This document shows, piece after piece, positions 1 through 31,393 of a DNA stretch of 64,000 nt. A program made the position numbers and the translations under genes. The notes below the pieces were generated by a model. It ran no database searches, was not told the origin of the DNA, and was given only the letters and a program-made list of their open reading frames with translations. Within the stretch, counting starts at the first letter, position 1. Each line of letters starts with the position of its first letter. This DNA comes from Phyllosticta citribraziliensis (lineage: Eukaryota): contig NW_027117345.1 of assembly GCF_038025025.1 (NCBI RefSeq), positions 1 to 64,000 of the forward strand. The letters are read 5' to 3'.

Positions 1-107
1 CCCTAACCCTAACCCTAACCCTAACCCTAACCCTAACCCTAACCCTAACCCTAACCCTAACCCTAACCCTAACCCTAACCCTAACCCTAACCCTAACCCT
101 AACCCTA
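1..107. repeat. Telomeric repeat array (CCCTAA)17 plus a partial unit; chromosome end
   Basis: Perfect CCCTAA tandem array from base 1; this is the C-strand of the TTAGGG telomere typical of filamentous ascomycetes. Confidence 0.99.
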
Positions 108-1400
108 GTAGTTAAAAAAACTACTAATTAGTAAAGTACCTTCTTTCTAGGTATTCTAGTTATTAGTTAGGTATTAGCTAACTTACTAGTATTTTACTTT
201 ACTAGAAAGAATATACTTAATTAAAAGCTTTAATTTATTATTATATAATAGATACTAGTTCTTTTAATACTAGAAAAAAATATATAAAAAGGTCTTAAGT
301 CCTTTTAAGTAATAACTCTTTAATTACTTTTTATTTTTATTAAATTTACTTTTTTTACTTAAAAAACTTTTCTTTATCTATTTAAAACTACTAGTCTACT
401 AAGATTTATATTTTATAATCTACTAGTAAATTAACTAGAAGAGTATAGAGATATTTTTTTTAATATAGGCTTTTATAGTAGTCTTCTTCTATATTAATAC
501 TAAAATAAGGCTATACCTCTTTATTTTAGTATTTTATTTTAAAAAATCTAAAAGTTATATAACTTTTACTAGCTATAATTCTACCTTAGATACTTATATC
601 TTAGATACTTATATAATAATATATATTTATTATATTAAGAGGACTAGGCTCTAGTATATAGTAATATCTATTTAGAAGCTAATTTCTTTTTAAATAATTA
701 TCTTACTATTTAAAAATTATATAAAAATATTAGGTACTTAAAAAAATTATCTATATATTTAAGTAGTCTTATCTATTAAGCCTATTTATAGGAATAGCCT
801 AGATAATACTATTATAGCTAGATATATATAAATATCTTTAAAGATTATTATTTATTACTACTTATTAAGTACTATATTAAGATATCTAGAACTATTAGTT
901 AAGTATTAAGTAGCCTTAGTAATTATCTAATTAGAATTATTTAAAGTATACTATTATACCTATAGCCTTAGTATTTTATAATCTATAGGCTTATCTACTA
1001 ACTAGCTAAAAAAAAATAAGCTAAAATAAAATAGTACCTTAAATAGGTAAAAATCTATAAGATATACTATTATTATTATTATATTAAAAGTTAGTAAAGG
1101 TCTCTATTAAGTATATTAAGTATATTAAGTATATTAAGTATATTAAGTATATTAAATATATTAAGCTTTTTAAAGTTAGTAAGTATATTAACTATAGAGA
1201 TTTTTATTAATATAATACTATAAGAAGTAAGTTATTAATATATAATATTACTAAGAGGTTTTTACTACTACGCCTATAGTAATCTAGTCTAAGGATAATG
1301 CCTTAAGGGTTCTATAGGGTATATATATATAGTATAAGGTAGCTACTAACTAATCTTAAGAAGGAGAGCTAAGCGATCTAATAGATAGTTACTGCGATTA
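108..1400. repeat. AT-rich subtelomeric block, RIP-degenerated repeat or transposon relic
   Basis: Very AT-rich with TpA everywhere. CpA, TpG and CpG are nearly absent until about 1270, and no ORFs are present. It grades into normal composition at about 1300-1450. Contains a (TATTAAGTA)n tandem at about 1105-1165. Confidence 0.85.
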
Positions 1401-2265: not shown

Positions 2266-3116
2266 ATGGTCTTCTTCCAGAATTTGTGCCTTGTCATTGC
2301 TCTTGCGGGAGCCAATCCGCTTCCTAAGGGACCCTCCTTCACTCCTTCTTTCGGATCTGGTCTCCCAAGTCTCCCAACTGCAACGCCGTCATTCGCTCCT
2401 GGATTGACCCCTTTCCCCTCGGGTACGCCATCTCTGCCCACCGGTCTGCCATCGTTTACGCCGAAGGGTGTTAGCGGAAGCTCTCCCCTAGTTGCGCGCG
2501 ACGAGTTTGGGTCTTCGACACAGAATGGTCTCACCGACGGAACTGCTTGCAAGAAAGTTTCGTTGATTTTTGCTCGCGGCACTTCGGAGCAGGGTAATAT
2601 GGGATCTGTCGTTGGACCTCCCCTGGCATCCCATTTGGCATCTGCAATTGGCAGCGGCAACCTTGCCGTGCAAGGTGTTGAATACTCCGCTTCTGCAGCT
2701 GGTGCTGCCTCCGGCGGAGACGCAAGTGGGGCCTCCAAGATGACGTCTCTGGCCGACGATGTGGTCAAGAAGTGTCCAGACACCCAGGTGGTTCTCGGAG
2801 GATACAGCCAGGGCGCACAGTTGGTGCACAAGGCTGGCTCCTCGATCGCAAGCTCGACCGCGGCTCAAGTCAAAGCGGTTGTTGTGTTTGGCGATCCGCT
2901 CAAGGGTCAAGCAATCAAGAACATCGATTCGGGGATCGTCAAGACCTACTGCCATGAGGTGAAACCTGGTTGCATCCCATGAAGAAAAGGTCACTAACAC
3001 TTGAACAGGGAGATGAGGTCTGCAGCGGCACTTTCGTCATCACTCAGGCCCACTTGACTTACGGCGACGACACTCCCGATGCTGCGAGCTTCATCAAAGG
3101 AAAGGTCACCGTCTGA
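2266..3116 (+). CDS. Secreted cutinase (CE5), 2 exons (intron 2959-3008)
   Basis: Signal-peptide-like MVFFQNLCLVIALAGA, then IFARGTSEQGNMG, nucleophile GGYSQG and VFGDP. Splicing GT..CACTAAC..AG restores the C-terminal C-x3-D-x2-C...AHLTY motif (YCHEGDEVCSG...AHLTYG). Confidence 0.93.
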
Positions 3117-3457
3117 TTCGACTTCGCGTCAACCTGGGGCAATGTCCGGATAGCTGCTTCCGAAGAGGAAGTCACATGCGTGGCACCACAAGGAGGCTTC
3201 GTCTGCAGGCGGACATTCAGTTCTAACACTCGCTGTTGCACGCTTCCATGATGTCGGCTTGTTATGATCTGTCGAACCATCTAGAATTCTAGAATTTAGC
3301 CTTGTCATTCGTTTGCTAGACCGAAAAATACAACTGATTGCAAAAAGCTCTACTGTTGGCGAGTTTCGAACGTCTTTCAGTGCGTGCCCTGTTTGCTTTA
3401 TTCATTAGCCTGATTTGATGTATGTCGAGCGGACTGACCAGTTGCTCGAGTTCCCCT

Positions 3458-5628
3458 TTAACCGTAACGTGGTCTGGGAACATTCTCGTAGTAAGGAACG
3501 ACGATGATATTTTTGTCTTCACTCGCTCCGACCATCGATTTCGTGACAGGATGCGTCGGCTTTCGGCTGACGAGAAGTTCGATGCAAGATGGTCCATCTT
3601 GGCTGAGCACTTCCATGAGCGCAGGCTCAATCTCTCCGATTTGGTCAACTTTCGCAGAACTGTTCCCGAGTCCCCTTGCGATCATGGCATAGTCCGTCTT
3701 TGGGCTCAAGGACGAGACAGGTCGGGAGGCGATCTTTTCACCATACACAAGGTCCTGGCCGTTGGCGCTCATTCCCCAGCAGTGGTTATTTACGACTACA
3801 GTGAGCACATTCAGGCCGTGTCGAGCGTACGAATCCAGGTCCATGAAGTGGAATCCGGCAGAACCGTCTCCTTGGATGTTGACAATCATCTGGTGCGGCG
3901 CTGCGACTGCGCATCCCAAGGCCTGGCCGAATCCCGACCCGAGAAAACCAAGGTAGCCGGTGCTTGATACGATAGTGTGTGGTTTGGCTAGCTTTGCTGC
4001 CATCGCCGCCCAGGAAGCGCACTCTCCGCCGTCAAAGACGATGATCGGATCTGGTGGGAGCAACGACAACAGCGCGGCCAACGCGTGGTAAGGGTGCATT
4101 TTTCCGTCCTCTATTGTTCGTGGCTCTTTTTCAAAAGGCGTCGGTATGTCCTTCAATGCCGTGGCAAGTTTGATCCACTCAGGAGATACTTGGACCGGTA
4201 TTTTTGACAGTCCCACGTTGAGAGCCTGCAGTGTTTGACCCACGTTGGCAACGACTCCAACGTCGACTGCGCAGGTCCGACCGATTTCGCCTCCGTCTGT
4301 GTCGACTTGAATGATTTTGCAATCTTTTTCAGGAATGATGGACCCTCCACGACCTCCAAGATACATTCCGGTGCGGGCTCCGAGCAGTAGAAGGCAGTCC
4401 GGTGGCGCGGATCCCACTCGCTTCAGAAGTCCCAAAGCGTCTGCAGAACCAGCAAAGACTGGGCTTTCGTACAGCGGAAATAAGAAACAGAACTTGCCGT
4501 TGTGAAAAACTGGTATTTGCGTTGATTTGGAAAATTCCAGCAGTGCCTTGACAGCCTGTGATGAAATCAGCCTTCTGTCGCATTATACTGGAATCTTTCG
4601 AGACGCTTACAGAAGCAGACCTCGCGCCACTCCCGAATATGATTGCCGGTCTTTTCGCCTCTTTCAATAACAGTAGGGCCTCGTTGACGGCACTCATGCT
4701 CGGGCCCGGGGGGAACGGAAGAGGGCTCGTGATGGCACCCCAGGATATGCGCGATGCCTCGACGGGTGCGAACAACACATCGATCGGAAAGTCGACAAGA
4801 ACAGGACCTGCAGTGTGTCAGTCAGAGACGATTCGTGGCCATGAGGCTCGGTAGCACAATTCGTGGCGCAAAGTAATGCGGTTGTGCGAATGCTCCTCGT
4901 AGTCACAGCCCACAGGCGCTGGAAATCGTCTGAGCCTCTGGCCAAAGGAAGGCTCGAAGTTTGCCCGAACGCTCCACATTAGTTGAGATCCAAAGCGTAC
5001 AAACACTTCTAATCAACTATCGCCTTCTGATGTGCGCCACGACCTTTGCCACCGAGCATCGAGAGACGGATTCCGCAGACTGACCTGGAGCGCCAGCTGT
5101 CGAAACATGAATGGCGTGGGCCACAATCCGAGGAATATCCTCGGCATATATCACTCGGTGCGCGAATTTTGTCAGTGGTCTTGCGGCAACCACTTGGTCG
5201 ATTTGTCCTTGGAGGGAATTGTTTTCTTGATCTCTGAGTGGCACAGAGGACGTGATGCAAAATATGGAACTGCGGTCTGCCAACGCCGTCGCCAATCCGG
5301 GAAGACCGTTTGAGTACCTTTGCGCGCAAGGTCAGTCGCCATGCTCCACGCGATTGGGGTCGTATACTGACCCGCTGTTTGCAGTGACGAAGCAAACGCC
5401 TGTCTTCCCAGTCATCTTCGAGTATCCTTCGGCGGCCTGGACTGCGACAGTTTCATGCCGAGTATCCACCAGTCTGATGCCGACGTAGTCACATCCAACC
5501 AAAAAGGCATCCAAGTGACCGCCATGCAGGCCAAAGGCGACCTCCACTCCGATCTGACGAAGACATTGGGCCAAAAGGTCGCCTCCTGTCAGCTCTCGGT
5601 GAACAGGATACTTGAGCGAAAACGACAT
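3458..5628 (-). CDS. ThDP-dependent enzyme, benzaldehyde lyase / 2-hydroxyacyl-CoA lyase / acetolactate synthase-like; 4 exons (introns 5318-5371, 4808-5084, 4556-4610)
   Basis: N-terminal GGDLLAQCL..GVEVAFGLHGGHLD..DTRHE (catalytic Glu), GPVLVDFPIDVL, and the ThDP/Mg motif GDGSAGF...VVNN. The three GT-AG introns join all segments in frame. Confidence 0.92.
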
Positions 5629-6009
5629 GGCGTTCGATGCGCGCAAAAGTTTTGGGTGAGCTGACAGTGTTTTAAAGAGCCGACCTCCAGTTTCTCGACG
5701 CGTCACGTAGCCGCGGGGCACAACAGTATGAAACCCCGCATACAGCCAGCCGGGGTGTCCCTCACAACCCTGACGTATCCCTTGCCAGATTGGGCACTGA
5801 TCGCGTTCGTACCGTGCCGAAAGTGAGATCCAAAAGTCTTGGCCACGGCGGGACCAGACGCATTGGTTTCAAAAACAAGTTTTCGGCCGATGCCGTTGAT
5901 TGACTACGCTTCAAGAGTCGAAAGAAATGTGCAGTCAAGCCTGTGATCGGCTGGAGAGATTCCGGCGCCACGTCAACACGAGGTGACTGCGGCAACATTA
6001 AACGGCTTC

Positions 6010-7100
6010 TTAGTTCTCGGCTCCATCGCCGAAGAAGGACGCCGCTTCCTGTGCCTGCCTCATCTTGTCCACTGTGTTGGCGATGGGCTCCCTGTCACCC
6101 TGCACCAAGTTGCGGGCCGCAGCGCGCAAACCCTCTTCGATTTCCAAGAGTTGGCCCTCTTCCGAATAAATGACTTGCCCGTGTCGAGATGGGTCAGCCA
6201 TTAACAAGACCGCAGACCGTGCTACCGTCTCGGGGCCTTGGAACGGAATTCCAAGCGCGTTCATAAAGTCGCCGGGAATTATACTTGTCGATGTCCAGGA
6301 TGGCGCGAGCGCGTTGATTCTGATCGGAAACTTTGGATACAGCAGCGTTGTGAGTGATCGCATCAATCCCAATACTCCGTGTTTCGAGGTCGCTGTTCCA
6401 TCTCGTGTCAGTCAATCTGCCCCACTGTTGTATTCGTTCGACCATTCTGTACTTACAGTAATCGACCGCCGGAAATACTTGGAAGCCTTGTGCCGTGAGC
6501 AGGATTTCATGTACAGATTCGAATTCAACTTACTCGAAGCCGACCCGATTAAAACAACGCTTCCTCCTTGCGGGCTCTTCTTCAAGTGGTGACAGGCGAG
6601 CGCTGTCGTATTCATAACACTCTTCAAGTTGATGTCAAGCACATGATGACTTGGTTCCAACAAATCACCATTTTCGTCAACATTGTCTTCCAAAAGGTTC
6701 GTCTTGGGGCCGACTCCTACGTGCATTTTTAGTCAGAGCTTCAAAGCCCAAGCGTGGGAGTCCATGCGCACCCGCGTTGGCAAAGACATGATCGACTCGA
6801 CCATGCTGTTTCAAAACCTCCTTGAAAGCAGCAGACAAGCTCTCCCAAGAAGTGACATCCAGCGAAACATACGACAGGTTCCGCTGAACCGCGTCTGCTG
6901 GCAGCGGGTTGCGGTCTCCAACGACAACTTTGGCCCCATTCTTGATACACAGCAACGCCGTGGCCAAGCCGATGCCGGATGCGCCGCCTGGCGGTGTTAA
7001 TCGAACGTCGCATTTCCGGGGAGAGCAGCTCACCTGTGATGAAGACGACGTGATCCCGGATGCTCCCAAGGTCAGAGTCGTTGATCTTCACGTCCGTCAT
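6010..7100 (-). CDS. Classical short-chain dehydrogenase/reductase (SDR), about 5 exons
   Basis: Spliced product has VFITGGASGIG, VFANAG, catalytic YSTSK (split across a mini-exon) and IRINALAPSWT. Confidence 0.9.
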
Positions 7101-8357
7101 GTTGTGTAGGCGCTTGAAATTGAAGCAGGAAGGCGAATAGCAGTTGAGACGGATATGGGGGCGACTTCTCAAAAATAATTACTGGAACAGGAGGCTTTAT
7201 ATTGCTGGCTCGATATTAACGAGTTTTCCAGTGGACCTGCGTGGGCCAGGTGGATTCTTCAGATAAGGGGCTGCGCGCACGGTCGTGCCTAGTCCGTCGC
7301 ACCTCATAGGAAGTGCGGTAAGATTCTTGGTACGGCGGGGAGATCATGGTAGCCGAGTAGCCCCCCGCACATGACGGGCCCTCGGTTGGTCTCGTCGTGC
7401 AAGGTCCTGGACCGTTTTCCTCATATCAAGAGCCATGAACACTAAGACATTTCCAGTCAAGCGCTGATAGCTTTTGGAGATGTCACAAAGTGTTCTCAGT
7501 GATGTGCTCTGTAAGTCGAGAATTGGACCAATGCCATCGATTCCCTCTTGCTCAACACCAAGCTCTTCCACTTCCACGAAACTTTCTTCTAACCAGATTC
7601 ATTTTCTAGATGTTGCTAGTGCGTTCGGTACATGATGCGAAAGGTCGGATCGGGAACATTTCTCTTGCGTGATTTTGTCGACCCCTGCGGTAGAGGGGTT
7701 GGCTTTGAACTTTGAACTCATGACCACAATGATGGGTGCTGATAGAACGGCGCACGCCAAGCAGGTTTTCGCTTAGAGACTACTCATGGGCCAGCGACTT
7801 GATCTTAGTCTGTATGCTGAGAACTGAAACCTTCTGGCATTGCGGACGGCCAGGAGCATTCGTTCAGTGTCGCAGTTGCGACTAAGGAGGTCCCGCACGC
7901 CATCACACTGCGCTGAGATACTGCCGTTCTTTGCTGCAGGCAGACCTTGTAGTATGGTTTCCTTCAATGCCCACTGGGATATGACGCTGTGCCACCCAGC
8001 CATCCGAGGCTAAGTCTCGAAACCAGAAACCGTTTGCAAAGAACGCAGGCGCCGTGCGGAGTCGTACTCGTCGAGGTTGAACGACGTTTAGTACCCGAGG
8101 TTACGGTGTTGGATCCCCAGCTTCGATCTTCGCCAACTTTGGTAAGTCTGGCACGCGGCCAAAGTGCACTGAGCAGCTGCGGGGCCGGCGTAGCGAGTTC
8201 GGGGGTGCCGAGATCCCGTCGGACCACCATGCCACCTGGGACGAGAAGGGCCGAGCTGCTGCTCTCCTAGATTTTGGAATGTGCTGGATCCTTTTCTCTT
8301 GTCTTCCTCGTCTGGTCTCCGACTGTTAGCGTGATTCGTTTCAACCTGGCCTTCAAA

Positions 8358-10175
8358 ATGGCGGGCTACTCGGTGCAAGGTGAAGCTCATCGTATTCTTC
8401 AGGAGGACCTCCTCGAAGATGCGCGATTGGGCATCTCGAGAAGCATTGCCGATGCCGCAAAGAAGATTGAGTTCACAGGGGGTGATTCTCAGCCATTTGT
8501 GCCTTCTCCTTGCAAAATGACAGAATCTGGCTCTGCCCTTACCGCGCTGGTCGCAGCGAGTGGGAGCGCGGTTGCGGCCGATAGGTATGGCATTGAGCAT
8601 CAGGAGATCGAAGTCAACACGTAAGTCCTTTCATGTGTTGCGTCGCGAGTAGGAAAGAACATTTACCACTCATCCACAAGTTTTTGTCAACAAAAGCTGA
8701 CAAGCGTTCAGCGACGTTGCCACCTTGTTTCTGGAATCAGTCTTGCTGCCAACAATCAACGGTCAGCACTATCTGAAGAATGAGCACATGCAGAAAGAAA
8801 TGGGAAAAGCAGACATTTACCAGATGGGTGAGCCCATTCACCGTTTCTCGACCAACGTCTATCAGACCAAGGACGGCCGGTGGTATCATCTCCATGGATC
8901 AATGAATGCAGGGCCGACGATGAAGATGATGCAAGTCGAAGAGCAGAAGGCTTCCGAGGACGAGGCGAAGAAGATCTACGCCGAGAAGGTGGCGCAGTGG
9001 GACTCGACCGAGATTGAGAGAACGGCGAATGAGCAGTTCAAACAGGCTGGCACTGTGTGCAATTTTCCGGAGGAGTTTTTCGCTTCCGAACACGTATGTA
9101 TCGTCCTGCAGCCAAAGAAATCGCAGTGGCTGACGCATAGCAGGGAAAAATCATGGGCGAGGAGCCCCTCTGGACTTCGAAGACGCTACCGGCTCCGCGC
9201 AAGCCATGGCCTCAAGTCTCGGCCGATTCTGAGTACAAGCCTCTTGCAGGCATCAAGGTCGTTGACTTCTCACGCGTCATTGCTGCTCCGGCTATCTCCA
9301 AGATTCTGGCCCTTCTCGGGGCAGATGTGCTCAAGATCTCAAACACCAATCTGCCAGAGGTCGGAGCGGTCATGATTGAACTCAACACTGGGAAGCGAGA
9401 CGCCAGTCTTGACCTCAAGACTCCAGAGGGCAAGAAAGCCTTCACTGAATTGGTCGAAGGTGCTGACGTGTTGGTGGATGGCTACCGTCCCGGCGTGTTG
9501 TCAAAATTGGGTTTCGACTCGGCCTCTTTGCGGAAGCTCAACCCGACGTTGATTTACGTCCGCGAAAACTGCTACGGATTCAAGGGGCCTCTGTCGTATC
9601 GCTCAGGCTGGCAACAGATCAGTGATTGTCTTGTTGGCATCTCGTGGCTGCAAGGGAAGTTCCTAGGCCTCAACGAGCCAGTCGTCCCGTTGTTCCGTGA
9701 GTACACGAATGCTTCTGATTCGCCGCTGGCACTGATGAAGATTGCAGCCAACTCCGACTACCAAACGGGCCTTGCTGGAGCAGCCGCAGTACTTGGAGCT
9801 CTCCTCGCTCGCACCAAGGACGAAGTGACCTACGACATTGACGTTAGCTTGACCCAGTACAACATCTGGTACTACCGCTTGGGTCAGTACGACGAAGAGC
9901 AGCAGACGCAGTTGCGCAGTCGCAATCAGGGGTTTGAAGTGCGCCACGACGATGACATGCTCAACCTTGTGATGAAAACTCACGCAGCCATCAAAAAGTC
10001 TCATCCAGACATTTTCACGCATCCAGAGTACTTCTGGAACATGAGCGGAAAGGAGTGGGGACTGGAAGACGACATTTTGATCCTTGCACCGGCATTCAAG
10101 TACGAAAAGTCGAAGCTGGGATACTCGGTTCCTTCGGGCTCGCGCGGGAGGTCTAAGCCGGAGTGGTTGTCTTGA
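8358..10175 (+). CDS. Family III CoA-transferase (CaiB/BaiF-like, long fungal form); introns 8621-8711, 9094-9143, 9697-9747
   Basis: PLAGIKVVDFSRVIAAP..LALLGADVLKI, NTGKR..LDLK.PEGK, ADVLVDGYRPG, and spliced PNSDYQTG (catalytic Asp position). The N-terminal half has YQTKDGRWYHLHG. Confidence 0.92.
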
Positions 10176-10354
10176 GGGAACGGGTTGCACGTGGGTATTG
10201 TTGCATGGCAAATGTTTTTGCTTCGGATCCAAATCTGTAGACGACGGAAGCACAAATGGTCTGGTAGAGAATTTATCAGTAGCCCAATGTAAAACATTCA
10301 GATTCGTGTGCACTACGGAGAGAACAAACTTACGTCGCACATTTTAATTGGTAC

Positions 10355-10834
10355 TTACTCTTCGCTGATAGAAGTCGACCGCATTGCATTCGCGAGGCTG
10401 TCCCGAACAGTCTTCCACTGTAAGATCATGGTGAGTGCCTGAAGAAGTGCCACATAGGTGCCATCGTCAGGCTCGTATAGCTGCAGCTTGATCATCTTGT
10501 TCATGATCCGTCTCAAGTCCAGGGCGACAGACTCCCACTGTTCCAGTGAGTCTTCGATTTCGAACGAGTAGTAAAAGTCGGACCTTTCAATCTTGTCGAG
10601 AGATGCATTGCAGCAATCAATGTACCGTCTGGTGATGCACTCGACCTTTTCTTTGAGAAGGTCCCAGGAGTTGGGAAGCACGGCAACGAGCTCCTCGGTG
10701 GAAAGCTTGCCGTCGGTGGCCGACTTGCCTGCGATTTCAGGAGTCGGAATTGTCGAAACAAGGTTCTGGGGAGGGCTCGAGGCTACCTGAGGCTCTGCCT
10801 TTGGCTTCTGGGCGATTGGGGTCTTGACGTCCAT
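10355..10834 (-). CDS. Hypothetical protein, 159 aa
   Basis: ATG-initiated ORF with coding-like codon usage, a disordered N-terminus and a helical C-terminus; no family recognised. Confidence 0.55.
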   Translation of the reverse strand: MDVKTPIAQKPKAEPQVASSPPQNLVSTIPTPEIAGKSATDGKLSTEELVAVLPNSWDLLKEKVECITRRYIDCCNASLDKIERSDFYYSFEIEDSLEQWESVALDLRRIMNKMIKLQLYEPDDGTYVALLQALTMILQWKTVRDSLANAMRSTSISEE

Positions 10835-11513
10835 GTAGAAATTTGAATACTTCCGTTGCTTGATGATTTACTGTGGGAGATGCTGAATTCGTGACCTCGT
10901 GTTGATTCTGGTTTTGCTGTTTGCCAGTGCCTAAGTGCGACTTCCACTTAAGTATCCAAATCACAGTGCTGACATTGTGCCTGAACAATGGCGAAACTGT
11001 TTGAAAGAGAACCAGGGACAAAGAAGACGTGGTCGAGATGAAAGGACGTTCAAAGTCGAAATATCCGCAGCGATGAAAGACATTTTGGTACGCATTTCAA
11101 ACAAGAAAGCGCGTCAACACATTGTTCTAGCAGCTGGTGGCAACGCTGTAGTTGCTATGCCGGCGGACTGCAAGAGGGTCTCGCGGTGGTTTCGCTGCAT
11201 GTTGCTGAAGTGTGGTTTTGTCGACGGTTGAGGAGGCGAAAGACATCAGTGGCTGCGCAGCGACTGCGATGACTGAGATGAGCCAGACGTGGCCAGAGAC
11301 AAACAGAACGAAGAAGAAAGGGGCTTCGATGGATGGACGAGATGGTGTTGCGAGTCGTTGCAGCAGGCGGGTGGATGGTCGCCGAGCGGACTTTCCAGAC
11401 ACGGACTAGCGCGGCGGGCGCGGTCGCGTCGGCGCGTCTTCCCAGGAACATGAAGCCCACCACCGACACCATCTCTCCTCACAGTCCTCCATCCAACCCG
11501 CTGTACGCCCATC

Positions 11514-12863
11514 ATGTCCTCAAGTACCGCCCGTCGATCCACGGCAGACCGTAATGCTATAGCTTCGAGCAGCAGGTCGGCTTACGAGAACATCAACGAA
11601 CCTCTCGATTACCAACCGCCATCCGCACCTCTCAACGCGTCCGGCCACCAGGCTCTTCGCAGCATCGCAACCCAACACCAGGACCGCCTGATTGCACACC
11701 TTCGCGCCGCCGCTGAGTATCTTGATTCTTCCGCGGGCCAGATCAACGAACGTCTCACCGAGCGCAACCAGGCTGCGCGTCTGAAGCGCAAACGCGACGG
11801 CAATGGAGAACAGACGGAGGAGTCACAAGCTTTGGCCGAGCACTTGTCCGAGTTTCAACCCAAGGTGGAGTTCATGACCAAGCGCATGGATGAGGCTCTA
11901 CGTCAGACGATAGATGGCAAAGAAATGGCAGCGCAGCTGGAAGCCGCGTTGAAAGGCGTCAAGGACCATACTGCAGGTGCTGCCAGCCAGGTCACGGCAT
12001 CACAGCGCTCCGAATGGGATCCAACGATGCCAGGTCAGACGCAAGATGGTGTGGCAGCTCCTTCTGAAAGATTCCGCCAGAGTTTCCAAGGCCAAAAGAA
12101 CAGATACAACTCCAAGTCGCTCAGAGTCCGCTACTCGGAGCATCCAGACTACGTCAAATTCAAGACCAGTGTCCACATGGCATTGCAATCTGGAGAACAA
12201 ATCGCGCCACTGCCCCACAAGAGTACCTGGTTTCAGGATGGCTCCAATGCAGACCAGGATGATGCGGACAGCGATGACATTGTCATGGAGGGCGAGAGCA
12301 TCAGGACCACCTGTCCCATTACGCTCGCCCCATTTCGCGAACCTCTCAGCAGCGACTTGTGTCCGCACCACTTTGAAAGGTCCGCCATTCTGGAGCTGAT
12401 TCGAAAGAGTCCCTTGACGTCGGAAAGGACGACACAGAGGGGTGCCACGCAAGTCAAGGTGGTCCAGTGCCCTACGCCCGGCTGCGACCAGGTACGTCTC
12501 AATTTGTTCTTTCGACATGCAAACAAACTGACTGGTTGATAGATGCTCTCCGAAAGCACGCTCAGCGTACGGCAATCCTTCATTCGCACGTTACGTCGCC
12601 TGGAACGCCTGCGAGAAGCTCGAAACAATGACTACGAAGACGAGGAAGATGGAGACGAGACCCGGCGAAGCAGGTCCATCGTTTTGGGATCAGATGACGG
12701 TTATGCAGACGTCGACGGTAACGTTGCGGCTGGCAGCAGTGGTCCACAGGTCAAAGTGTCGTCCAGCGCGGCTGCTCCGTCAGCGACGGCCAGAACAAAC
12801 AATGACGCGGACAACATCGTCGATCTTGGTAGCGAGACGGACGAGGAGGACGAAGAGGATTGA
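11514..12863 (+). CDS. MMS21: Smc5/6 complex SUMO E3 ligase Nse2/Mms21 (intron 12492-12542)
   Basis: Coiled-coil N-terminus, acidic DDIVMEG, then SP-RING TCPIT...CPHHFE..AI...QCPTPGC and an acidic tail. Confidence 0.87.
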
Positions 12864-13974
12864 AAACTTCAAGGCATGCGGCTTCCAGTGTAGCTACGGA
12901 CATTGGTCACTTCATGTTGCTATGCTCTGAGGCGTTGTGGTTACGCCAGCGAATGAAGCAGACTTCTTGAGACCTTTATGGCCCAGCTTCTTCCTTCACT
13001 CGCTACGATGGTGACATCTCCCCGGGACTCCGTTCATCTCACGGCGAGATTTCGCTGTCCTTTATCCACTTGGCCTCCCGGCTTCCGTCCTCGACTTTGT
13101 ACTCCCAAGCCCTCTGCTCCTTCACCAACTTGGCATCCACGACGACGTATTCCTTGGTGCTGCTCTCTTCGGAGACCGAGACTGTTGACCCGATCTTGTG
13201 CGCTTGAGCGGGCTACGCGATGGCGCGGTGGTCAGATGCCGGTCGTCGTCCATGAAGCAGCTGCGACTCACGAGACGTGGATTCGATCGGCGCTCTAGGC
13301 GTTGGCTGACGTCGCCGTTGGGATTGCCCTGAACGAGATGGCGACCGTGAGACAATGCCAATTCTTCAATGACAAAGAACAGTGTACGGTCTGCTCCGCC
13401 ACGTACCTCAATCATATTTCTTTGTTGTCGGCAGCTTCTTTGTGGTTCGGGTAACGGCTTTTCCTGGTCGAAGACGTTGCAGGCAAAAGACGTCTGATCG
13501 AGAGGAGCTTGTTTTGATTTCAAGGCACATGGACCGATGACGAGCTCGCGCGATAGATATGGAGCCCGCCTACGACCTTGCTGGAGCTGTTCAGCGACCC
13601 ACAGTTTCTCGCACCTGCCAGATTTGTTTAGCGTCAACCTGCTGCCACATGCCCTGCCTATCCTCTGCCAGCCGGGCACACGCTTCTTCCTTGATGCGAG
13701 CTCATGTCAGAGCGAGATAGAGGTCAACATGGGATGACGCCACGTCTGCTCGACTCAAAATTGCATACGCTACCTAGGCGCAAGCAAAAATCGTCGCAGG
13801 CTCTGGTGATTGACGCTTTGAGGCCACGAAATACGCAAGTCACGAAGGGACCATTTTCTGCGTCACCTCGCAAGCGCGCGCTTCTTGATCCTCTTGAGCA
13901 GTACTGGGGCTTCAATTCGCGTCATCCCATTTCTCACGTTTTTTGCCTTTCTTGTCGGTCCCACACTACCACAA

Positions 13975-14995: not shown

Positions 14996-16105
14996 CTACT
15001 TTGGCATCTCTGTGGAGCCTCTCCTGCTGACGCCTTCCTCGATATTTTTGGGTTTGCAGTCTTTCCGTCGTTTCGCCAAATGCCTCAGCGCAAAAATCGT
15101 CTCTCTCAATCCCATGAACACGAAAAGAGCAAGCAGCGAAATTGCAATGATACAGATGACAAGCAAAATGGCAACGCATACGCCCTCTCCCACTCTGTAC
15201 AGTGGCCTCCAGTTGTCATGGATAGTGCCAAGTCCATCTCGTGACTCGAATCCCAGCTGTATGGCGTTGATCATGATGGTGAGAAGTCCGAAGATGAACA
15301 GCAAAGGACCGTAAAAGCGACCAAAGTATGCGTCATAATTGCCGTATGCCTTGAAAAAGGAGAATTCTCCGAGGACGAATTTGGCCCAGAAGTTGAGGCG
15401 ACCGAGACGCAGGTCACCGTATTGGAATCGGCGGGAAACGTCCGCATCGTCCACGTCGAAATCTTCCATGAATCTGATGAACGAAGCGAAGTCTATCTTT
15501 GGCTTTTCGTTCCCGTTTGCGCTTGTATCCTGGGAAGTGTTGCAGTCAACAGGAACTAGACCCTTTTGAACGGCAAGAGCAAAGTCTGATGGATACTGAA
15601 TCAAGAATCGGTAGCTCCGCATGAAGCCCAACAGCGATCGATGGATGTTTTCGGCCTCCAAATCTTCGCCTTCGGTCCGCGCATCCTTCGCAAAACACGC
15701 TTTCCAAAATGCACTCGAAAGGAGGAACGGCGGTATTGGCTTGATGAATATCCTCTTGTCGTGCCAGACAAGGTGCAGCTCTGGTCTCTCCGTCACTGTT
15801 ATTTCGCGGCCCCGGACGATTTGGTGCGTCAAATCAGAGATGTGCGTGCTGTCTTGCGTCGCTACAAGCCACAGCCACGGGGTAAATTTATCCAGTCGAG
15901 GCGTGTGAAAGTCTTTCTTGAGGAACTTCAGAACGTCGCTCCGAGTCAGCCGCGTTTGGGGACGGCTGGGAAGCCGCTTTGGAGTGCTGTCTGTTCCTTG
16001 TGTCTGCCAATCGACATCTGAAGGGATCAAGTCATCGAGCCCTTGAAAGAGACTACCGTTCGGCATGGGGAGGTCTTCCTGCTCTTGCCTGGATGTGGAT
16101 GCCAT
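14996..16105 (-). CDS. DUF6601-like fungal membrane protein, 369 aa
   Basis: Motifs HQIVRGREITVTERPELHLVW..RIFIKPIPPFLL, GFMRSYRFLIQYPSDFALA and FQYGDLRLGRLN, plus two C-terminal hydrophobic helices. Confidence 0.8.
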   Translation of the reverse strand: MASTSRQEQEDLPMPNGSLFQGLDDLIPSDVDWQTQGTDSTPKRLPSRPQTRLTRSDVLKFLKKDFHTPRLDKFTPWLWLVATQDSTHISDLTHQIVRGREITVTERPELHLVWHDKRIFIKPIPPFLLSSAFWKACFAKDARTEGEDLEAENIHRSLLGFMRSYRFLIQYPSDFALAVQKGLVPVDCNTSQDTSANGNEKPKIDFASFIRFMEDFDVDDADVSRRFQYGDLRLGRLNFWAKFVLGEFSFFKAYGNYDAYFGRFYGPLLFIFGLLTIMINAIQLGFESRDGLGTIHDNWRPLYRVGEGVCVAILLVICIIAISLLALFVFMGLRETIFALRHLAKRRKDCKPKNIEEGVSRRGSTEMPK

Positions 16106-17175
16106 GATGGTGGGAGTGATTCAGGTTTCCCTGCGAGTCGAATTCAGCCCCTATTTGTCGGACAGACAACACAGGTAACTGCACTATGAACAAACGGGAA
16201 AAACTCTCAATGGCCTTCAGCGGCACAGAACAAGCGGAGTTCAGGTTCTGTTCAATATCTGGCTGATGCGGTTGACGAGACCCACAGCGGGTCGACCTGA
16301 TCCATATGGATCAGGGGCGCTTGTATGTGACAGCCACAATGCGTAAGGAAAGCCCCTGGAATCGTGGCGGCACCCAATGAGCATTTGTTCACTAGCACAG
16401 TTGCGTCTCGATCTGCGGCCAGGGCTTGTCACTCATGTTGACACCCACCGTGAAGCAAATGAGAGACAGTAGGTGGGCGTCTGTCACTCATTTGACTGGC
16501 TATCGGGCTGCCGCGATCGCAAAGCAGGCTTCGCGAGCTGTAAGCGCCACATAGTTCCTATACATGTGCAGCAGGTGTTACAGGTCAAGATGATGCAAGG
16601 TAGAGACGATAGGCTACAAGGGTCACTGTTGAAAAAGCTGACTCCTGTACAGTTGGGTATCGAATCACAGGCTGGTACGGAGTACTTGCCAGTTGAGTTT
16701 ATGAAGCCAGGCCTGGCTCATTCCAGGTGGCATCACGTAATTCGCATTGACCGTTTCCACTGTCTAATTGTGGTTGACTGTCTCTGAAAAGCCCTGAGCA
16801 AAGACTTCTCTGTTTTACCGTGGACCAGGCCAACACAAGAACGACTTTCGCACACACCACCCTCAAACCTAGACTGTGATCCGTTTCGGACTCTTGTAGA
16901 CGCAAATATTCTCGACTCGATAAGGAGCACCTCTCTCGGTTCGGCTCGAAATCTATTCGCGGACAGCGCGTAATCAACCCACACCACATGCAGTAGCCAG
17001 TTGCGGTGCATAGTGCCGTTGACGCACACAGGCGCTTATATAGGCTTGTGTGGACCCCACTTGCTATTCTTTGCTTTGCTCACCACCGTCGACGAGACGA
17101 CAACACCTACCTCGGACTGAACAACTTCCGGGCACTTCGCAGCTTTCCATCGGACACACCGCGAGACATGACAAA

Positions 17176-20100
17176 ATGATCCCACCGACCATTTGGATCG
17201 GGCCAGTGGCCTACTTTGTTCGTTCAATATTCTCTTCGTCCTTATTCCACCGTCTTTGGTCTGCGTCTATTCTCGCACTTCTTCTGTTACTTGAAGTCTC
17301 TTCCCTTCAAGCTAGCTGGAGCGCTGCCGCTTTCTATTGGCTTCTTGCAGCAATAGACTCTGTGCTTGTCCTGCTTCTTTCCCCGGCTCAGACGCTCGTC
17401 TTTCGAGAAAAGGTAGCAGAAAGCGCTCCGAGGAGGTATGAGGAATGGCCGAAGCTGGAGAAAGCGAAATTCGAGTGGGCATCCTACCAAACTTGCGACA
17501 ACTTGGCTGCTGATGAGATTCCATCACAGCGTTGTGGCCGTCCATGGTCTCGGATCAAAGCCCCAATCGGCCTGGACGAATGAAAAGCGCGATAAGCTCT
17601 GGCTTCGCGACTTCCTGCCATACGAGAAAGACCTCAAAGTTCGTGTCATCGCCCATTATCATAGTTCGCATTGGAGCTCCAACGCGCTTCTTTTGTCAGT
17701 GGAGGATCTGGCTCGAGATCTTCTCCAAGCCATTGACATGAGTCGGTCAAATCTAAGCGTAAGAACGGCTTCGAACACCATTTCGGCTCTTGCTGATGAG
17801 GCATGGATTTAGGAACCCGAGCGACTCTCAAGGCCCATAGTTTTCGTCGGCTACAGTTTTGGTGGTATCATCATCAAGAAAGTGAGCTTCACTCCTGCTC
17901 GTACGCTCTTTCACTACATGAGCCCATCGTACCATCCTTCTGACAACTTTCGAGGCTTTCTTGATGAACAAAGGCCGCCATAGACAGATTTTTGATCCCG
18001 ATGCAGTTGGATGTATCTTCCTTGGAACGCCCCATGGCGGATCTCCACTCACCTTCGCCGGAATTTTGATGTCCTTACTTGGATATTGGTCCGGATCAGA
18101 AACAAGATTACTGGAAGCGATCAAGCCTAGCTCGAAAGAGAACAAAGCCCTTCACAGCGATTTTAAGAGCAAATTTCCCGACATGCGTAACAAATTAGTC
18201 AATTTCTTCGAAGTTGCGCCCGAGTATCTTGGCCCCTTCCCACTCACACAGGTAATTCCACTCCTTTGTGGCTCGAAGGCCATTATTCTGATGAGTTCAG
18301 GTCGTCGATAAAGAATCTGCCACATTAGACGGCTACGAGGAAGTCTCTTTCAAAAGCAGCCACAGAAACATGCAGAGACTTGACAAGGGAGACCAAGCTT
18401 ATGAAGACTTGGTGTTCTGGATCAGGAAATTGGCCGGGGGTGCCGAAACTGAAGCAGGGAATGGTGCGACTGAATGGTTACATTCCGAAATACATCATAC
18501 TGATTCAACTGCTTCCGATAGCAGCTCTCCAAGTTCAGCAAAAACAAAACGAGTGCTTCGATAGACTCCCGTATGCGGAAACGGCAGGGCACAACGATCG
18601 CGGTCTCGGGGTTGACAAATGCCTTAACGGTACACGGGAGGAGCTCCTCAAAGATATCCGCAAGTGGCTCGAAGATCCCGAAGGTGAAAGACTTTTTGGG
18701 CTTGAAGGCATGGCAGGAACAGGAAAGTCTACTATTGGTTGCAGCGTTGCAAAAGATGCCCCGAAAGATGTTGCCGTGGCAAGCTTCTTCTTCCAAAGAG
18801 GCAGTGGTGAACGGGGCAGGGCAAGCAGCTTTGTTACTACGATCGTTCAACAACTGGCTCGCCATCCCCGACTACAGTCGACTTTGGCCGCCGCCGCTGC
18901 AAGCGACCACCGGATAGCAACGACAAATCTCTCATATCAATGGACGAAACTTATCCAAGAGCCACTTGCGAAGTTGGAAACCCCGCGTATTCTTTTGGTA
19001 ATAGATGCTGTCGACGAATGCGAGGACAGTTTCCAAGAAAAAGGAGCTCTCTCGAATCTTCTATTACAGGAAGACAATTTCAAGGGTCTCAACCTGAAAT
19101 TCTTCGTCACAGCTCGTCCACAAGAGCTCGTTCTTCAGGGATGTCAAAGAAGGAAAATCCTGCACAATGTGCCCACTGGCGACGTGGAAAAAGACATTCG
19201 TCTGCTTTTACGGGTCCGATTCTCTGAATTCCGAGAGAGAGGCGCCGAGTGGCCCGAGAATGAGGAGGAATTCGACATTGTCATCGAAGTCCTCGCCAAG
19301 CGTTCTACACCACTCTTCATCGCCGCGATGACCAGTTACAAATTTGTCACACTGAATAAATTTCAACCCAGAAAACGGTTTGAGCTTCTTCGCAGAAACT
19401 CGGAGGCCTCAAAACCAGAACCAGAACTTGACGTCAAATACCTTACCATCATTAGGTATGCCATCGCAAGCGGCGGCGTGGACACGAGAGACGAGATCAT
19501 GCCAATGTATCGTACCATCATTGGCTCGGTGGTGACGCTCAAGGACACTCTCGTGGCAGAGGATCTCGCGAAACTTATTTCAGAGGAATGTGGCGTCGTG
19601 AAGAGGTTCCTCGCAGAGTTCTCGGCGGTCTTGGTCGTTTCTAAGCCAACGGAACCGGTATCAATTTTCCACGAATCCTTTCGCGACTTCGTTCTCGATC
19701 AGAATAGGCACCAGAAGGCTGCAACATTGACCAAGCATGAGGGAGACCTGAACTTTGACCCGAAAGACTTGTGGATCGACGAGCGAAAGGCCCACGCCGA
19801 CCTTTTGCACCACTGTCTCCGCACCATGGGAAAATACTTGAAAGAAGACATTTGCAACTTACGAGTCCCCGATGCCGCGGCTTCGGAAGTCTCTCAAGAG
19901 CAGCTACAAATTCATATCCCAGCGCATGTGCGCTATGCCTGCAGGTATTGGATTGTCCATTTCTTGAGCTGCTGCAAGTCCGGAGACAAAGAGTGCGGGA
20001 AAGTGCTCGAGTTTCTAAAGAAGCACTTATTACATTGGCTCGAGGCAATGAGCTGTTTTAACAGCATGGCCGAAACTGTGAAAATGACCAATGATCTCAA

Positions 20101-22435
20101 GCAGTATTTGAAGAAGTCTCTAGGTCATGGCAGTGCCTCTCTATCCTCTGAACTGCTCGAGTTCGTCCTCGAGTCACAGCGATTCCTTCGATACAACAAA
20201 CAAGCTTTTGAAAAATGGCCACTTCAGCTATACAGCTCGGCTCTTTTATTCTGCCCAGAAAAATCTCCGATCCGAGACCTTTTCTTCAGACGGCCAGCAT
20301 GGATTGTCAATCAGCCCAGTGTCTCAAAAGAATGGAGCGCGACTGTTCAAGTACTTGAAGGCCACGAGGAACCGGTCACTCAAATCGCCTTCTCTTCCTG
20401 CGGCACCAGCATTGTGTCCTGGTCAATGGATAACGAAATGATCATATGGGACGCTGAAACTGGGAATCTTCGAGGTCGACGGAGAATTCAAGGGTTCACA
20501 CGACAGAGTCCCCCTTCCTCCTTTGCAGTGTCGACGGATGTCCTCGTTTATCCTCTCAGCGACAACAGACTCGGACTATTGAACGTCAAGGAGATGGAAG
20601 AGCTAGGACAGTTAAAGGGCTTTTGTCCGAAGTTCTCCCCTGATGGCACTATACTTGCAGTCTTGTCTGAATCAAACGAAATATTCATATGGAGGATTAC
20701 GGACACGAAAACCTTTCCCACATTACAAACGATGCTTCAACTTCAACTAGAAGACTGCGAGTCCCTGATTGTAGAGACCTTTTTTAATGCCAGTGGAAGC
20801 TACTTCACTGCTTTATCACGTCTTGTTGAAGGTAAGTACATTACCCGAGTGTGGAGTACAGAGACTTGGGAAATCTGCTTGGAGTTTTCAGACTCTCTCG
20901 AACCTGGAAGGTCATGTCGCGGATCTTCCTTGTTTCACCCAAGTGGCAAATTCCTGATCAGTGGATTGAGATCTTCTAAAACTAAGCTCTGGGACATCGA
21001 AAACCAGCGTTTAGTAAGAATTATCATAAATCCATCCAACTATGGTCCTGTTTCTGCTGGGTACGTCGACTTACTTTCAAATGCTTTCAACGACGTCGCA
21101 AATCCATCGCACGAGCCGGAGAAACTGCAAGAAACTGAGGGTCCAGATACTCCCCACAGAATTCCTATGCATGTCTCAATCTCTCCGAACGGCAAGACCC
21201 TCGCCGAGGTGTCACTTCGGACCAAACGCTGTGTCAGGGTTTGGGATATAGACCTTGGCGCCCCTGTCAATACACTCAGCGGACAAGGAGGAGCTTTGTG
21301 GTCTCTGGCCTTCTCACCAGATAGCAATCTACTTGCCTCCGGCGGACAAGACAAGGACATTCGGGTGTGGGACTTACAGCCACGCATGCGAAAACCTGAA
21401 CAGCGCCCCCAAAACTCTATGGCTACTGCCATCTCGCCTAATGGAGACCTATTTGCGGTCGCTGTGTGGGATTCGGCATTGAAGTCCTCGACAATCCAGA
21501 TTTGGAACATAGGTGCTGAGGAAAAACTATGCAATCTGCCCGTACTGCGGTCCAGCCCCCCTGAAGGACTCTTCTTCTCCTCAAACAGCAGAGTCTTGGC
21601 CAGTCAATACGAGGAAGGAGACTGGGGCGGACGGCCAGTGGCAATTTGGGACCTACTAACAGGAGAGCTATCGAAGCAAACGACGATCAAGGAGTTCAGC
21701 AAATCCGAGTCTAAAGAAGCCAACCAAGACGATCTACCAAAATGGTGGGATTCTATGATAGACAAACCCTTAGTGCGTCTGCTCAACGTGGATCGTCCGC
21801 TGAAATTTGCTTTCCACAGTGGTATAAGAACAAGGTTTAAAAAACCAGAAGTAAGGCCTGCGTCTCTCCGATGGAAGCTCAGAGACCGTTACCATTCGGA
21901 CTTTGCGTTCTCTCCATCAGAAAGAGTTTTGGTAACCACGCACGATGAGCCGTACAAGAACACTTCAGTCGGCGAGGTCCGCGTATGGGATATCCTTGAC
22001 GGCTCCACGTTCAAAGAGCGCTGCTGCTTTCGACTTCGAAATTGTATCGACCGAATAAAGTTCTGTTCTGGTGGCTGCTGTCTCATTTCATCGACCGGCG
22101 TTTTTCATCCGTCCGGTGTTCAATCTGAGAGCTTCAAAACCTGCCCCGATGGAAAGTTGCCAATTTTGTACTCTGAAGACTGGTTGCTATGGCGTGGAAA
22201 ACGCCTGTTATGGCTACCAATTGAGTATCGGCCAGCTTACAACCTTTGTCATACTGTGGGACTTGCTGTTTACAAGAACGTTGTGGCCATTGCTCCGGTG
22301 GAAATGGATGTTTACTTTCTAAAGCTGGACTCTGTTCGTCTCGACGAGATGTTCGAGAAAATGAAATCGGCTGGAAAGACCCGGGAGATAGATGCAAGGG
22401 GATTCGACAGAGGCGACGGCGTGTTTTGGTACTAG
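17176..22435 (+). CDS. Fungal NLR: N-terminal TM segments, SesB-like alpha/beta hydrolase, NACHT and WD40 repeats; about 6 exons
   Basis: Spliced exons give DVVAVHGLG, LWLRDFLP, RPIVFVGYSFGGIIIKK and IFLGTPHGGS. The long exon has Walker A GMAGTGKS, Walker B LLVIDAVDEC, FHESFRDF, YACRYW, LEGH..VTQIAFS and LASGGQDKDIRVWD. Confidence 0.9.
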
Positions 22436-30899: not shown

Positions 30900-31393
30900 G
30901 ACTTTGGAAGCACAACAGGGCGGGCGGGGGGTGGATCAGTGCAGCATGGCGTGGGGGGGGGAGCAGACTGGGGTGTGCAGCGACGAGTCGAGACGAAGGG
31001 CGGAGACGAGGTCGTAAAGAAGAGAGTCAGGTCGGGGGAGGAGGAGACGGGGGACGGCCGTGGTAAAAGAAATGGGAGACGGAGTGGTAGTTGAACTGGC
31101 AAGTGTCACTATAACGCGAGAGTGTATCATCCTAATAGCCGCGAAATGACCAAGACCCCCCAAGCCACAATCAGAGGGCCTGGGAGCCTTGGAGCCTCGG
31201 AGCCTGGGAGCCTGGCCGCTCTGCTAGAAGGAGGCTTGGAGCCCGAGCCCCGACCCGGACCCCGACCTGACCCGGCGGGGGCCGCCTGCCTGCCCGTCGG
31301 CACTTCCTCGGCCCTGTGGGCCCGCGTCGGCGTCATTCACGTCGACGCGTCTTCCCAACCCTCGCCTGCTCTGCGACAACCCTCTCCGGCGCC

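What the first reader, a model, noticed from the sequence alone, without database searches (positions are those of the whole stretch)
3458..10175. Subtelomeric three-gene catabolic cluster: ThDP lyase, SDR and family III CoA-transferase
Seen: three intact enzyme genes within 6.7 kb; the SDR and CoA-transferase are divergent across about 1.26 kb, and the ThDP gene lies in tandem behind the SDR. Knowledge: a CoA-transferase III paired with a ThDP acyl-CoA-cleaving enzyme is the logic of the bacterial Frc/Oxc oxalate pathway and of 2-hydroxyacyl-CoA lyase routes. As I recall it, the N-terminus (FGLHGGHLD, DTRHE, LRDQENNSLQ, IDQV) resembles Pseudomonas benzaldehyde lyase more than acetolactate synthase. 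None of the three ends in a PTS1 (-RYG, -AEN, -WLS), unlike peroxisomal alpha-oxidation enzymes. Inference: an uncharacterised cytosolic activate/oxidise/C-C-cleave pathway for a plant-derived hydroxy acid or alpha-hydroxyketone.
Basis: partly seen in the sequence, partly recalled or inferred. Interest (0 to 1): 0.75.

Follow-up and report, generated by a model that had tools for sequence, protein, structure and literature searches.

The report
Fungal benzaldehyde-lyase-like catabolic gene trio
Three intact, transcribed enzyme genes sit together at a chromosome tip of a citrus-associated fungus, and the central one, a likely bacteria-derived cousin of benzaldehyde lyase, likely works with its neighbouring dehydrogenase to cut carbon-carbon bonds in plant compounds without coenzyme A, a reaction predicted here but not tested.

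Summary
The trio is real. All three genes are intact, 3.4-10.2 kb from a telomere, and RNA contigs splice all 10 predicted introns. The proteins are identical to annotated Phyllosticta citribraziliensis proteins and are consecutive in six Phyllosticta species. The ThDP enzyme is neither Ilv2 (a separate copy exists) nor Oxc (AU tests reject both). It belongs to an apparently uncharacterised clade next to benzaldehyde lyase (BAL; ~32% identity), widespread in Pezizomycotina and nested among bacteria.

The fungal enzymes lack the CoA-binding arginines, and a CoA-transferase III occurs in only 1 of 108 relatives' loci. The recurring partner is an SDR (14 of 27 bacterial genome loci; tandem in two Penicillium-like loci). 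The CoA-transferase link holds only in Botryosphaeriales: 5-6 genes away in Macrophomina, unlinked in 6 of 6 other fungi.

Best reading: the SDR oxidises a vicinal diol to an alpha-hydroxyketone, the ThDP enzyme cleaves it CoA-independently, and the CoA-transferase activates the resulting acid or is a passenger. The substrate is unknown. New variant of a known kind; interest 0.45.

The parts
3458..5628 (-). BAL-like ThDP-dependent enzyme, 594 aa; exons 5628-5372, 5317-5085, 4807-4611, 4555-3458
   Evidence: identical to P0001; 3 introns spliced
6010..7100 (-). Classical SDR, 292 aa (TGGASGIG, NAG, YSTSK); exons 7100-7034, 6987-6772, 6716-6534, 6486-6457, 6392-6010
   Evidence: identical to P0241; 4 introns spliced
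7101..8357 (.). Divergent intergenic region, 1,257 bp, shared by the SDR and CoA-transferase genes; no regulator site demonstrated
8358..10175 (+). Long-type family III CoA-transferase, 541 aa; catalytic Asp403 aligned to Frc D169; exons 8358-8620, 8712-9093, 9144-9696, 9748-10175
   Evidence: identical to P0274; 3 introns spliced
1..1300 (.). Context: (CCCTAA)n telomere to about 105, followed by an AT-rich RIP-like tract

Best explanation
The SDR and the BAL-like ThDP enzyme likely form a CoA-independent two-step module: the SDR would oxidise a vicinal diol, probably a plant-derived aryl diol, to an alpha-hydroxyketone, and the ThDP enzyme would cleave it into two carbonyl fragments. The family III CoA-transferase, linked only in Botryosphaeriales, would then activate the acid formed from one fragment. 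The likely order is oxidise, cleave, activate, rather than activate, oxidise, cleave. Shown: gene anatomy, splicing, family placement, residues and neighbourhoods. Inferred: every reaction, the substrate class, cytosolic location and co-regulation.
For: BAL, formolase and HeBAL are the nearest solved proteins by sequence (299 bits vs 178 or less for other classes) and by fold (top-ranked Foldseek rows, TM 0.83-0.85). The tree joins the clade with ReBAL (98/97), a tested BAL from plasmid pLRE138 (PMC9293332, passages), and rejects grouping with Oxc (p=0.001) or Ilv2 (p=8e-39). The BAL catalytic set H29/E50/L112/Q113 is kept as H38/E59/L121/Q122 in 20 of 20 fungal sequences, with Ser at the BAL T481 / AcHACL E493 position (PMC13327070, passages). 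Arg is found at the Oxc R264 column in 0 of 20 fungal sequences and at the R412-414 columns in 0 of 20. An SDR lies within 2 kb in 14 of 27 GTDB loci, spread over several branches, and in 2 of 4 plasmid loci. Bacterial neighbours include epoxide hydrolases, Zn-alcohol dehydrogenases and an ALDH-ThDP-SDR run. A same-family SDR (49% identical, same first-intron position) lies in tandem 445 bp upstream of the ThDP gene in a Penicillium citrinum-like locus, behind a salicylate-hydroxylase-like monooxygenase. ThDP and CoA-transferase genes are 5-6 accessions apart on one contig in two Macrophomina assemblies.
Against: There is no enzyme assay. Identity to BAL is only about 32%, and substrate-pocket residues differ (H286>G, Y397>A, F484>G, A480>M, L395>E, plus a C-terminal PYY(D/E) extension), so benzoin-type activity is not assured. 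The same-family SDR is upstream in tandem in only 2 of 15 fungal metagenome loci with at least 1.4 kb upstream. Bacterial SDR neighbours are generic (about 30% identical) and the loci are not independent. The trio has no ALDH, transporter or regulator beside it. The Phyllosticta and Macrophomina-linked CoA-transferases fall in different supported clades; their union is not rejected (p=0.08) but not shown. Some bacterial members do have Arg near the CoA positions (7 of 28 and 16 of 28).
Confidence: 0.45

Rival explanations
1. The SDR-ThDP pair is the only functional unit. The CoA-transferase is a passenger kept nearby by ordinary synteny, or an independent catabolic gene in the same metabolic island.
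For: A CoA-transferase III occurs in 1 of 108 relatives' loci (0 of 104 with our own protein as query). It is unlinked in 6 of 6 non-Botryosphaeriales species named in both hit lists. In run X3 (another organism), one contig also covers the unrelated gene at 10355-10867, so synteny within close relatives is not specific. The Macrophomina-linked copy may be a paralog.
Against: The link persists across two families of Botryosphaeriales, including two Logan contigs of identical length (38,523 and 40,163 nt) in both clusters. The CoA-transferase shares a divergent promoter region with the SDR.
Confidence: 0.25
2. One reading: the CoA-transferase activates a 2-hydroxy acid or oxalate, and the ThDP enzyme cleaves the CoA ester to formyl-CoA, as in Frc/Oxc or HACL routes.
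For: The catalytic Asp is intact in 38 of 38 CoA-transferases. No other Oxc/HACL ortholog was found in the own genome (a lower-bound search). The C-terminal extension could act as a lid like that of AcHACL.
Against: CoA-binding Arg positions are absent, and Gln stands in place of the Oxc Glu (PMC8760513, passages). NCBIfam scores are far below cut-off (HACL 224/600, Oxc 204/739, Frc 88/504). The AU test rejects fungi+Oxc. There is almost no co-location with CoA-transferases elsewhere.
Confidence: 0.1
3. The clade does other ThDP chemistry: hydrolytic cleavage of a 1,2-diketone (cyclohexanedione-hydrolase-like), or elimination from an aldehyde carrying an alpha leaving group (Xsc-like), giving an acid directly for the CoA-transferase.
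For: The clade has its own invariant signature (G406-E407, M491-S492, G495; 48 of 48 sequences). One actinobacterial branch sits among coenzyme M synthesis genes, MetE-like genes, paired SDRs and epoxide hydrolases. It would explain the missing ALDH. The CDH and Xsc mechanisms are recalled, apart from the table in PMC13327070.
Against: CDH (63 bits against the last exon) and sulfoacetaldehyde acetyltransferase (190/620) are far more distant than BAL.
Confidence: 0.12
4. Biosynthetic use: carboligation to an acyloin followed by SDR reduction to a diol metabolite.
For: The BAL reaction is reversible (established knowledge). The locus is subtelomeric. One fungal locus carries P450s, an EthD-domain gene and a flavin hydroxylase (L068).
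Against: No PKS, NRPS or other backbone gene was found among the window ORFs scanned. Bacterial contexts look catabolic.
Confidence: 0.08

Closest known systems
Benzaldehyde lyase (PfBAL, PDB 2AG0; ReBAL, PMC9293332; HeBAL, PDB 8Y7S)
   Same: Nearest solved sequence and fold; H29, E50, L112, Q113 and Q485 equivalents kept; no CoA-binding Arg; joined in the tree at 98/97.
   Different: About 32% identity (299 bits to PfBAL, whereas ReBAL scores 560). Pocket residues differ at A28, H286, A394, L395, Y397, A480 and F484. It has an extra C-terminal PYY(D/E) segment, is eukaryotic with introns, and its activity is untested.
Frc/Oxc oxalate pathway and 2-hydroxyacyl-CoA lyases (E. coli oxc-frc; AcHACL, PMC8760513)
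   Same: A ThDP enzyme of the same superfamily lies next to a family III CoA-transferase with the catalytic Asp.
   Different: 26% identity to Oxc; CoA-binding residues and the Oxc Tyr-Glu pair are missing. The CoA-transferase is a long type (extra 240-aa N-terminal part), 24-28% identical to Frc over the aligned part.
Fusarium verticillioides FDB2 cluster (PMC10512309, passages)
   Same: A fungal xenobiotic-catabolism cluster that contains a CoA-transferase III and a salicylate hydroxylase.
   Different: No ThDP enzyme appears in the listed part of FDB2. Whether FVEG_12629 or the induced ThDP gene FVEG_12508 are homologs of these proteins was not testable.

Membership tests
Benzaldehyde lyase (EC 4.1.2.38) | POX/BAL-type ThDP fold with GDG...NN motif and catalytic Glu50 | tested here: met
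   GDGSAG...NN present; E59 in 20 of 20 fungal sequences; Foldseek TM 0.83-0.85 to BAL
Benzaldehyde lyase (EC 4.1.2.38) | His29 and Gln113 at the active site | tested here: met
   H38 and Q122 in 20 of 20 fungal sequences
Benzaldehyde lyase (EC 4.1.2.38) | Conserved aromatic-binding pocket (A28, H286, A394, Y397, A480, F484) | tested here: not met
   G37, G297, G406, A409, M491 and G495 at these positions. ReBAL also differs at Y397 and F484 (PMC9293332), so this does not exclude BAL-like activity. The script label 'H281' is PfBAL H286 by count.
Benzaldehyde lyase (EC 4.1.2.38) | Falls inside the clade of tested BALs | tested here: inconclusive
   Only ReBAL could be placed in the tree. It is sister to the clade (98/97 for the union, 82/71 for its exclusion).
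Benzaldehyde lyase (EC 4.1.2.38) | Cleaves benzoin to benzaldehyde | not testable with these tools
   needs an enzyme assay
Oxalyl-CoA decarboxylase / 2-hydroxyacyl-CoA lyase | CoA-binding Arg-Ser and second Arg (AcHACL R273-S274, R417) | tested here: not met
   0 of 20 fungal sequences have Arg at the E. coli Oxc R264 or R412-414 columns; 1 and 2 of 20 have one within two columns. Mapping the AcHACL numbers onto Oxc is my inference.
Oxalyl-CoA decarboxylase / 2-hydroxyacyl-CoA lyase | Oxc Tyr120-Glu121, or AcHACL Glu493 | tested here: not met
   Leu121-Gln122 and Ser492 (PMC8760513 and PMC13327070, passages)
Oxalyl-CoA decarboxylase / 2-hydroxyacyl-CoA lyase | Curated HMM cut-off and phylogenetic grouping | tested here: not met
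   224/600 and 204/739 bits; AU p=0.001 against Oxc. No HACL sequence was in the tree.
Acetohydroxyacid synthase Ilv2 | Groups with IlvB/Ilv2 and serves as the housekeeping copy | tested here: not met
   AU p=8e-39; a separate Ilv2-like gene lies at G000:C14:774596
Family III CoA-transferase (CaiB/BaiF) | PF02515 domain and catalytic Asp169 equivalent | tested here: met
   143.6 bits against a cut-off of 23.3; Asp403 in 38 of 38; Z 25.3, rmsd 3.0, 267 aligned to SUGCT, tied with others
Formyl-CoA transferase Frc | TIGR03253 equivalog cut-off | tested here: not met
   88.4 of 504.2 bits
Classical SDR | TGxxxGxG, NAG, YxxxK | tested here: met
   T22, N93, Y165-K169; Pfam adh_short
Co-regulated metabolic gene cluster | Linkage conserved beyond close relatives | tested here: inconclusive
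   Trio in 6 Phyllosticta species; ThDP+CoA-transferase in Macrophomina; SDR+ThDP in two Penicillium-like loci; CoA-transferase unlinked in 6 of 6 other fungi
Co-regulated metabolic gene cluster | Co-induction | not testable with these tools
   Contigs show transcription of all three genes but cannot rank expression

The most novel reading that the evidence does not exclude
This is a eukaryotic branch of BAL-like C-C lyases, taken from bacteria by an early Pezizomycotina ancestor. With a partner SDR it gives plant-associated fungi a CoA-free, oxygen-free route to split aryl-diol/acyloin side chains (lignin beta-1 or phenylpropanoid fragments). Botryosphaeriales added a single-chain pseudo-dimeric CoA-transferase to channel the acid product.
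Probability: 0.3. Interest if true: 0.65.

Novelty: new variant of a known kind. Interest (0 to 1): 0.45.

Why it matters
If the reading holds, it assigns a function to a ThDP clade with hundreds of fungal and bacterial members that is now labelled acetolactate synthase, pyruvate decarboxylase or hypothetical. It would add a non-oxidative C-C cleavage step to fungal breakdown of plant aromatics. It would also supply a new pool of BAL-like carboligases with a different pocket (Gly at the A394 position, as in formolase) for biocatalysis. The three genes give a small, directly testable unit. If only the SDR-ThDP pair matters, the finding is still a usable functional lead but not a new three-step pathway.

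Tried and rejected
Housekeeping AHAS was rejected. Recent horizontal transfer into Phyllosticta was rejected: the gene has three introns, GC equal to its neighbours, and groups with Macrophomina and Mytilinidion inside a fungal clade.

The 'intradiol dioxygenase' beside the Penicillium-like pair (L097) starts with a signal-peptide-like sequence, so I did not count it as a catechol dioxygenase.

The 4-5 genes between the ThDP and CoA-transferase genes in Macrophomina could not be obtained. A paper search for EKG11372-77 gave 0 hits, and look-ups of the 10 chosen top SDR representatives named no Botryosphaeriaceae protein.

A profile comparison of the CoA-transferase N-terminal 240 aa with Frc gave only E=0.019. 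The single-chain pseudo-dimer idea is therefore a lead; that part was not folded alone.

The first AU test of CoA-transferase orthology (6 rows, p=0.001) left out nested Sordariomycete rows. The second (10 rows) gave p=0.08. Both groups were named after seeing a tree.

CGG-type motifs in the divergent region had no chance control and are not claimed. Contig depths were not used to rank expression. The 53-row ThDP tree finished only as a quick tree; the careful tree used 29 rows. Earlier findings of the scan returned nothing.

Paper searches found no characterised fungal BAL-like enzyme or this trio in listings or passages: 11 papers, listing; PMC8838675 passages only mention BAL as an option; 1 paper; 2 papers, listing; 1 paper. 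Searches gave 0 papers. Subscription papers are not covered. The one supplement held for PMC10512309 had no matching rows; its full expression tables could bear on FVEG_12508.
Full report
Observation. The window starts with a (CCCTAA)n telomere and an AT-rich tract with a RIP-like signature. A cutinase follows, then the three genes. Gene models with GT-AG introns give intact proteins of 594, 292 and 541 aa. They match Pfam TPP_enzyme N/M/C, adh_short and CoA_transf_3. They are letter-identical to P0001, P0241 and P0274, annotated in Phyllosticta citribraziliensis. Spacing is 381 bp from SDR stop to ThDP start and 1,257 bp between the divergent starts. Contigs from four public runs were laid on the region: X1 skips 10 of the 10 coding introns, X2 9, X3 8 and X4 1. 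All three genes are therefore transcribed and spliced as modelled; expression levels cannot be read from contigs. None has a PTS1 ending or a PTS2 pattern. In the wider families 1 of 120 ThDP and 3 of 120 CoA-transferase hits end in a PTS1-like tripeptide.

The ThDP enzyme. The homolog search gave 453 proteins at E<=1e-20; the 120 listed are ascomycete where named (Dothideo-, Eurotio-, Leotio- and Sordariomycetes). The own genome holds one copy, plus separate genes that look like Ilv2, pyruvate decarboxylase, an Aro10-type decarboxylase and one further ThDP enzyme (these labels are my reading of the ORFs). The best solved relatives are BAL, formolase and HeBAL by sequence (299 bits, next class 178) and by fold (model pLDDT 83). 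No NCBIfam model reaches its cut-off among the 25 shown. A GTDB scan gave 27 loci at 37-53% identity and plasmids gave 4. One plasmid hit is the R. erythropolis R138 protein that scores 560 bits to PfBAL, which fits ReBAL (PMC9293332, passages).

In a 29-row careful tree the fungal sequences are monophyletic (100/100) and nested among Binatota and Actinomycetota sequences. ReBAL is the sister of the whole clade. Grouping with Oxc (p=0.001) or Ilv2 (p=8e-39) is rejected (the 53-row quick tree agrees). This points to an old transfer from bacteria. The caveat is that the GTDB loci were picked with motifs from the fungal alignment.

Residues. BAL's H29, E50, L112, Q113 and Q485 are kept in 20 of 20 fungal sequences. 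The clade has its own invariant set (G37, G406-E407, M491-S492, G495, C-terminal PYY) and lacks BAL's H286, Y397 and F484. AcHACL binds CoA through R273, S274, R362 and R417, and Oxc has Tyr-Glu where HACL and BAL have Gln (PMC8760513, passages). At the E. coli Oxc R264 and R412-414 columns, which I infer to be the equivalents, 0 of 20 fungal sequences have Arg. Some bacterial members do have Arg nearby (7 and 16 of 28). The fungal enzyme therefore works like a BAL-type, CoA-independent enzyme, but it should not be filed as BAL itself.

Linkage. The three genes have consecutive accessions in six Phyllosticta species. This is weak evidence by itself, because one contig of a related organism also covers the next, unrelated gene. 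In Macrophomina phaseolina the ThDP and CoA-transferase genes are 6 and 5 accessions apart on the same contig in two assemblies. In 6 of 6 other species named in both top-120 lists (four Aspergillus, Penicillium macrosclerotiorum, Clonostachys rosea) the two lie on contigs of different length; paralogs outside the lists are not excluded.

Our CoA-transferase hits 0 of 104 fetched loci. Frc-, YfdE- and Variovorax-type queries hit 1 of 108. Many of these loci are short, and a Macrophomina-like spacing could exceed the 10-kb flank. The Phyllosticta and Macrophomina-linked CoA-transferases sit in different supported clades; their union is not rejected (p=0.08).

In contrast, an SDR lies within 2 kb of the ThDP gene in 14 of 27 GTDB loci and 2 of 4 plasmid loci. 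It often comes with Zn-alcohol dehydrogenases, epoxide hydrolases, an aldehyde dehydrogenase or flavin monooxygenases (133 of 158 called ORFs scanned). I ran no genome-wide background for SDR density. Among 34 loci that I judged fungal by GC and intron-sized gaps, a same-family SDR appears in 3. It is tandem upstream in L095 and L097 (2 of the 15 with at least 1.4 kb upstream) and divergent in L110. The L097 SDR is 49% identical, shares the first intron position and lies 445 bp before the ThDP start, behind a salicylate-hydroxylase-like gene. Other fungal loci carry flavin hydroxylases, amidases, an RraA-like aldolase, or no evident catabolic context (141 of 180 ORFs scanned).

The CoA-transferase. 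It keeps Asp403, aligned to Frc D169, in 38 of 38 sequences but scores far below the Frc cut-off. Its residues 244-541 match the family III fold (Z about 25, rmsd 3.0, 267 aligned; SUGCT, Brucella Frc and Rv3272 tied). The N-terminal 240 aa folds confidently and resembles part of a second subunit only weakly (E=0.019). Two paralogs of the same long type exist in the genome.

Mechanism. The evidence favours an SDR plus ThDP module that oxidises a vicinal diol to an alpha-hydroxyketone and cleaves it, followed by CoA activation of an acid product in Botryosphaeriales (confidence 0.45). All reactions are inferred.

Novelty. The proteins are in databases, and one ortholog is auto-named 'Putative Benzaldehyde lyase' (P0040). 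My searches found no characterised fungal member and no description of the cluster. Papers seen: PMC9293332, PMC8760513, PMC13327070, PMC10512309, PMC8838675, PMC10330721 and PMC9457059 as passages only; all others as search listings. Verdict: a real but lineage-restricted cluster around an apparently uncharacterised BAL-like clade; new variant of a known kind; interest 0.45.

Noticed in passing
L013, L017, L019, L020, L021, L024, L037 (GTDB Actinomycetota): The closest actinobacterial members of this ThDP clade sit among MetE-like genes, paired SDRs, epoxide hydrolases and GAF-PucR regulators; L017, L024 and L037 also carry coenzyme M synthesis genes (XcbA, XcbD over cut-off; ComA). This looks like an epoxide/CoM pathway with a ThDP enzyme where 2-KPCC would be expected (recalled comparison).
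   Followed up: partly
window 2266-3116 (+): Cutinase with a Pro/Ser/Thr-rich N-terminal stretch, the first gene after the telomere; its intron is spliced in run X1.
   Followed up: partly
window 10355-10867 (-): 170-aa ORF without a Pfam match, convergent with the CoA-transferase, with a spliced 73-nt intron at 10261-10333 downstream of its stop.
   Followed up: no
window 3388-3437 (-): A 50-nt intron in the 3' UTR of the ThDP gene, spliced in runs X1 and X2.
   Followed up: no
window 11454-12930, 14999-16120, 18329-22432, 24602-27793, 29284-30525, 31271-34400, 52881-56147, 56669-57925: Nse2-type SP-RING protein, DUF6601, NACHT-like/WD40 protein, multi-KH protein, DHHC palmitoyltransferase, Rap1, sulfite-reductase-like flavoprotein and a second SDR (62 of 95 ORFs beyond 12.9 kb scanned). 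Housekeeping genes begin only about 11 kb from the telomere.
   Followed up: no
G000:C7:4200-18000 (L128, L129): A second subtelomeric group: GMC oxidoreductase, long-type CoA-transferase III divergent from a 3-hydroxyacyl-CoA dehydrogenase, P450 and MFS. The CoA-transferase/3HCDH pair recalls FVEG_12628-12629 of the Fusarium FDB2 cluster (PMC10512309).
   Followed up: partly
window 8358-9143 (N-terminal 240 aa of the CoA-transferase): Well-folded extra part with an invariant Glu56 weakly aligned to Frc D169; it may stand in for the partner subunit of the usual interlocked dimer.
   Followed up: partly
L117 (R. erythropolis R138 plasmid pLRE138): The BAL-clade gene lies between an FAD monooxygenase and Rieske/VanB-type, aldehyde dehydrogenase and formaldehyde-handling genes (hxlB, purU), which hints at its natural substrate.
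   Followed up: no
G000 (own genome): No Oxc/HACL ortholog was found with E. coli Oxc as query (lower-bound search).
   Followed up: partly
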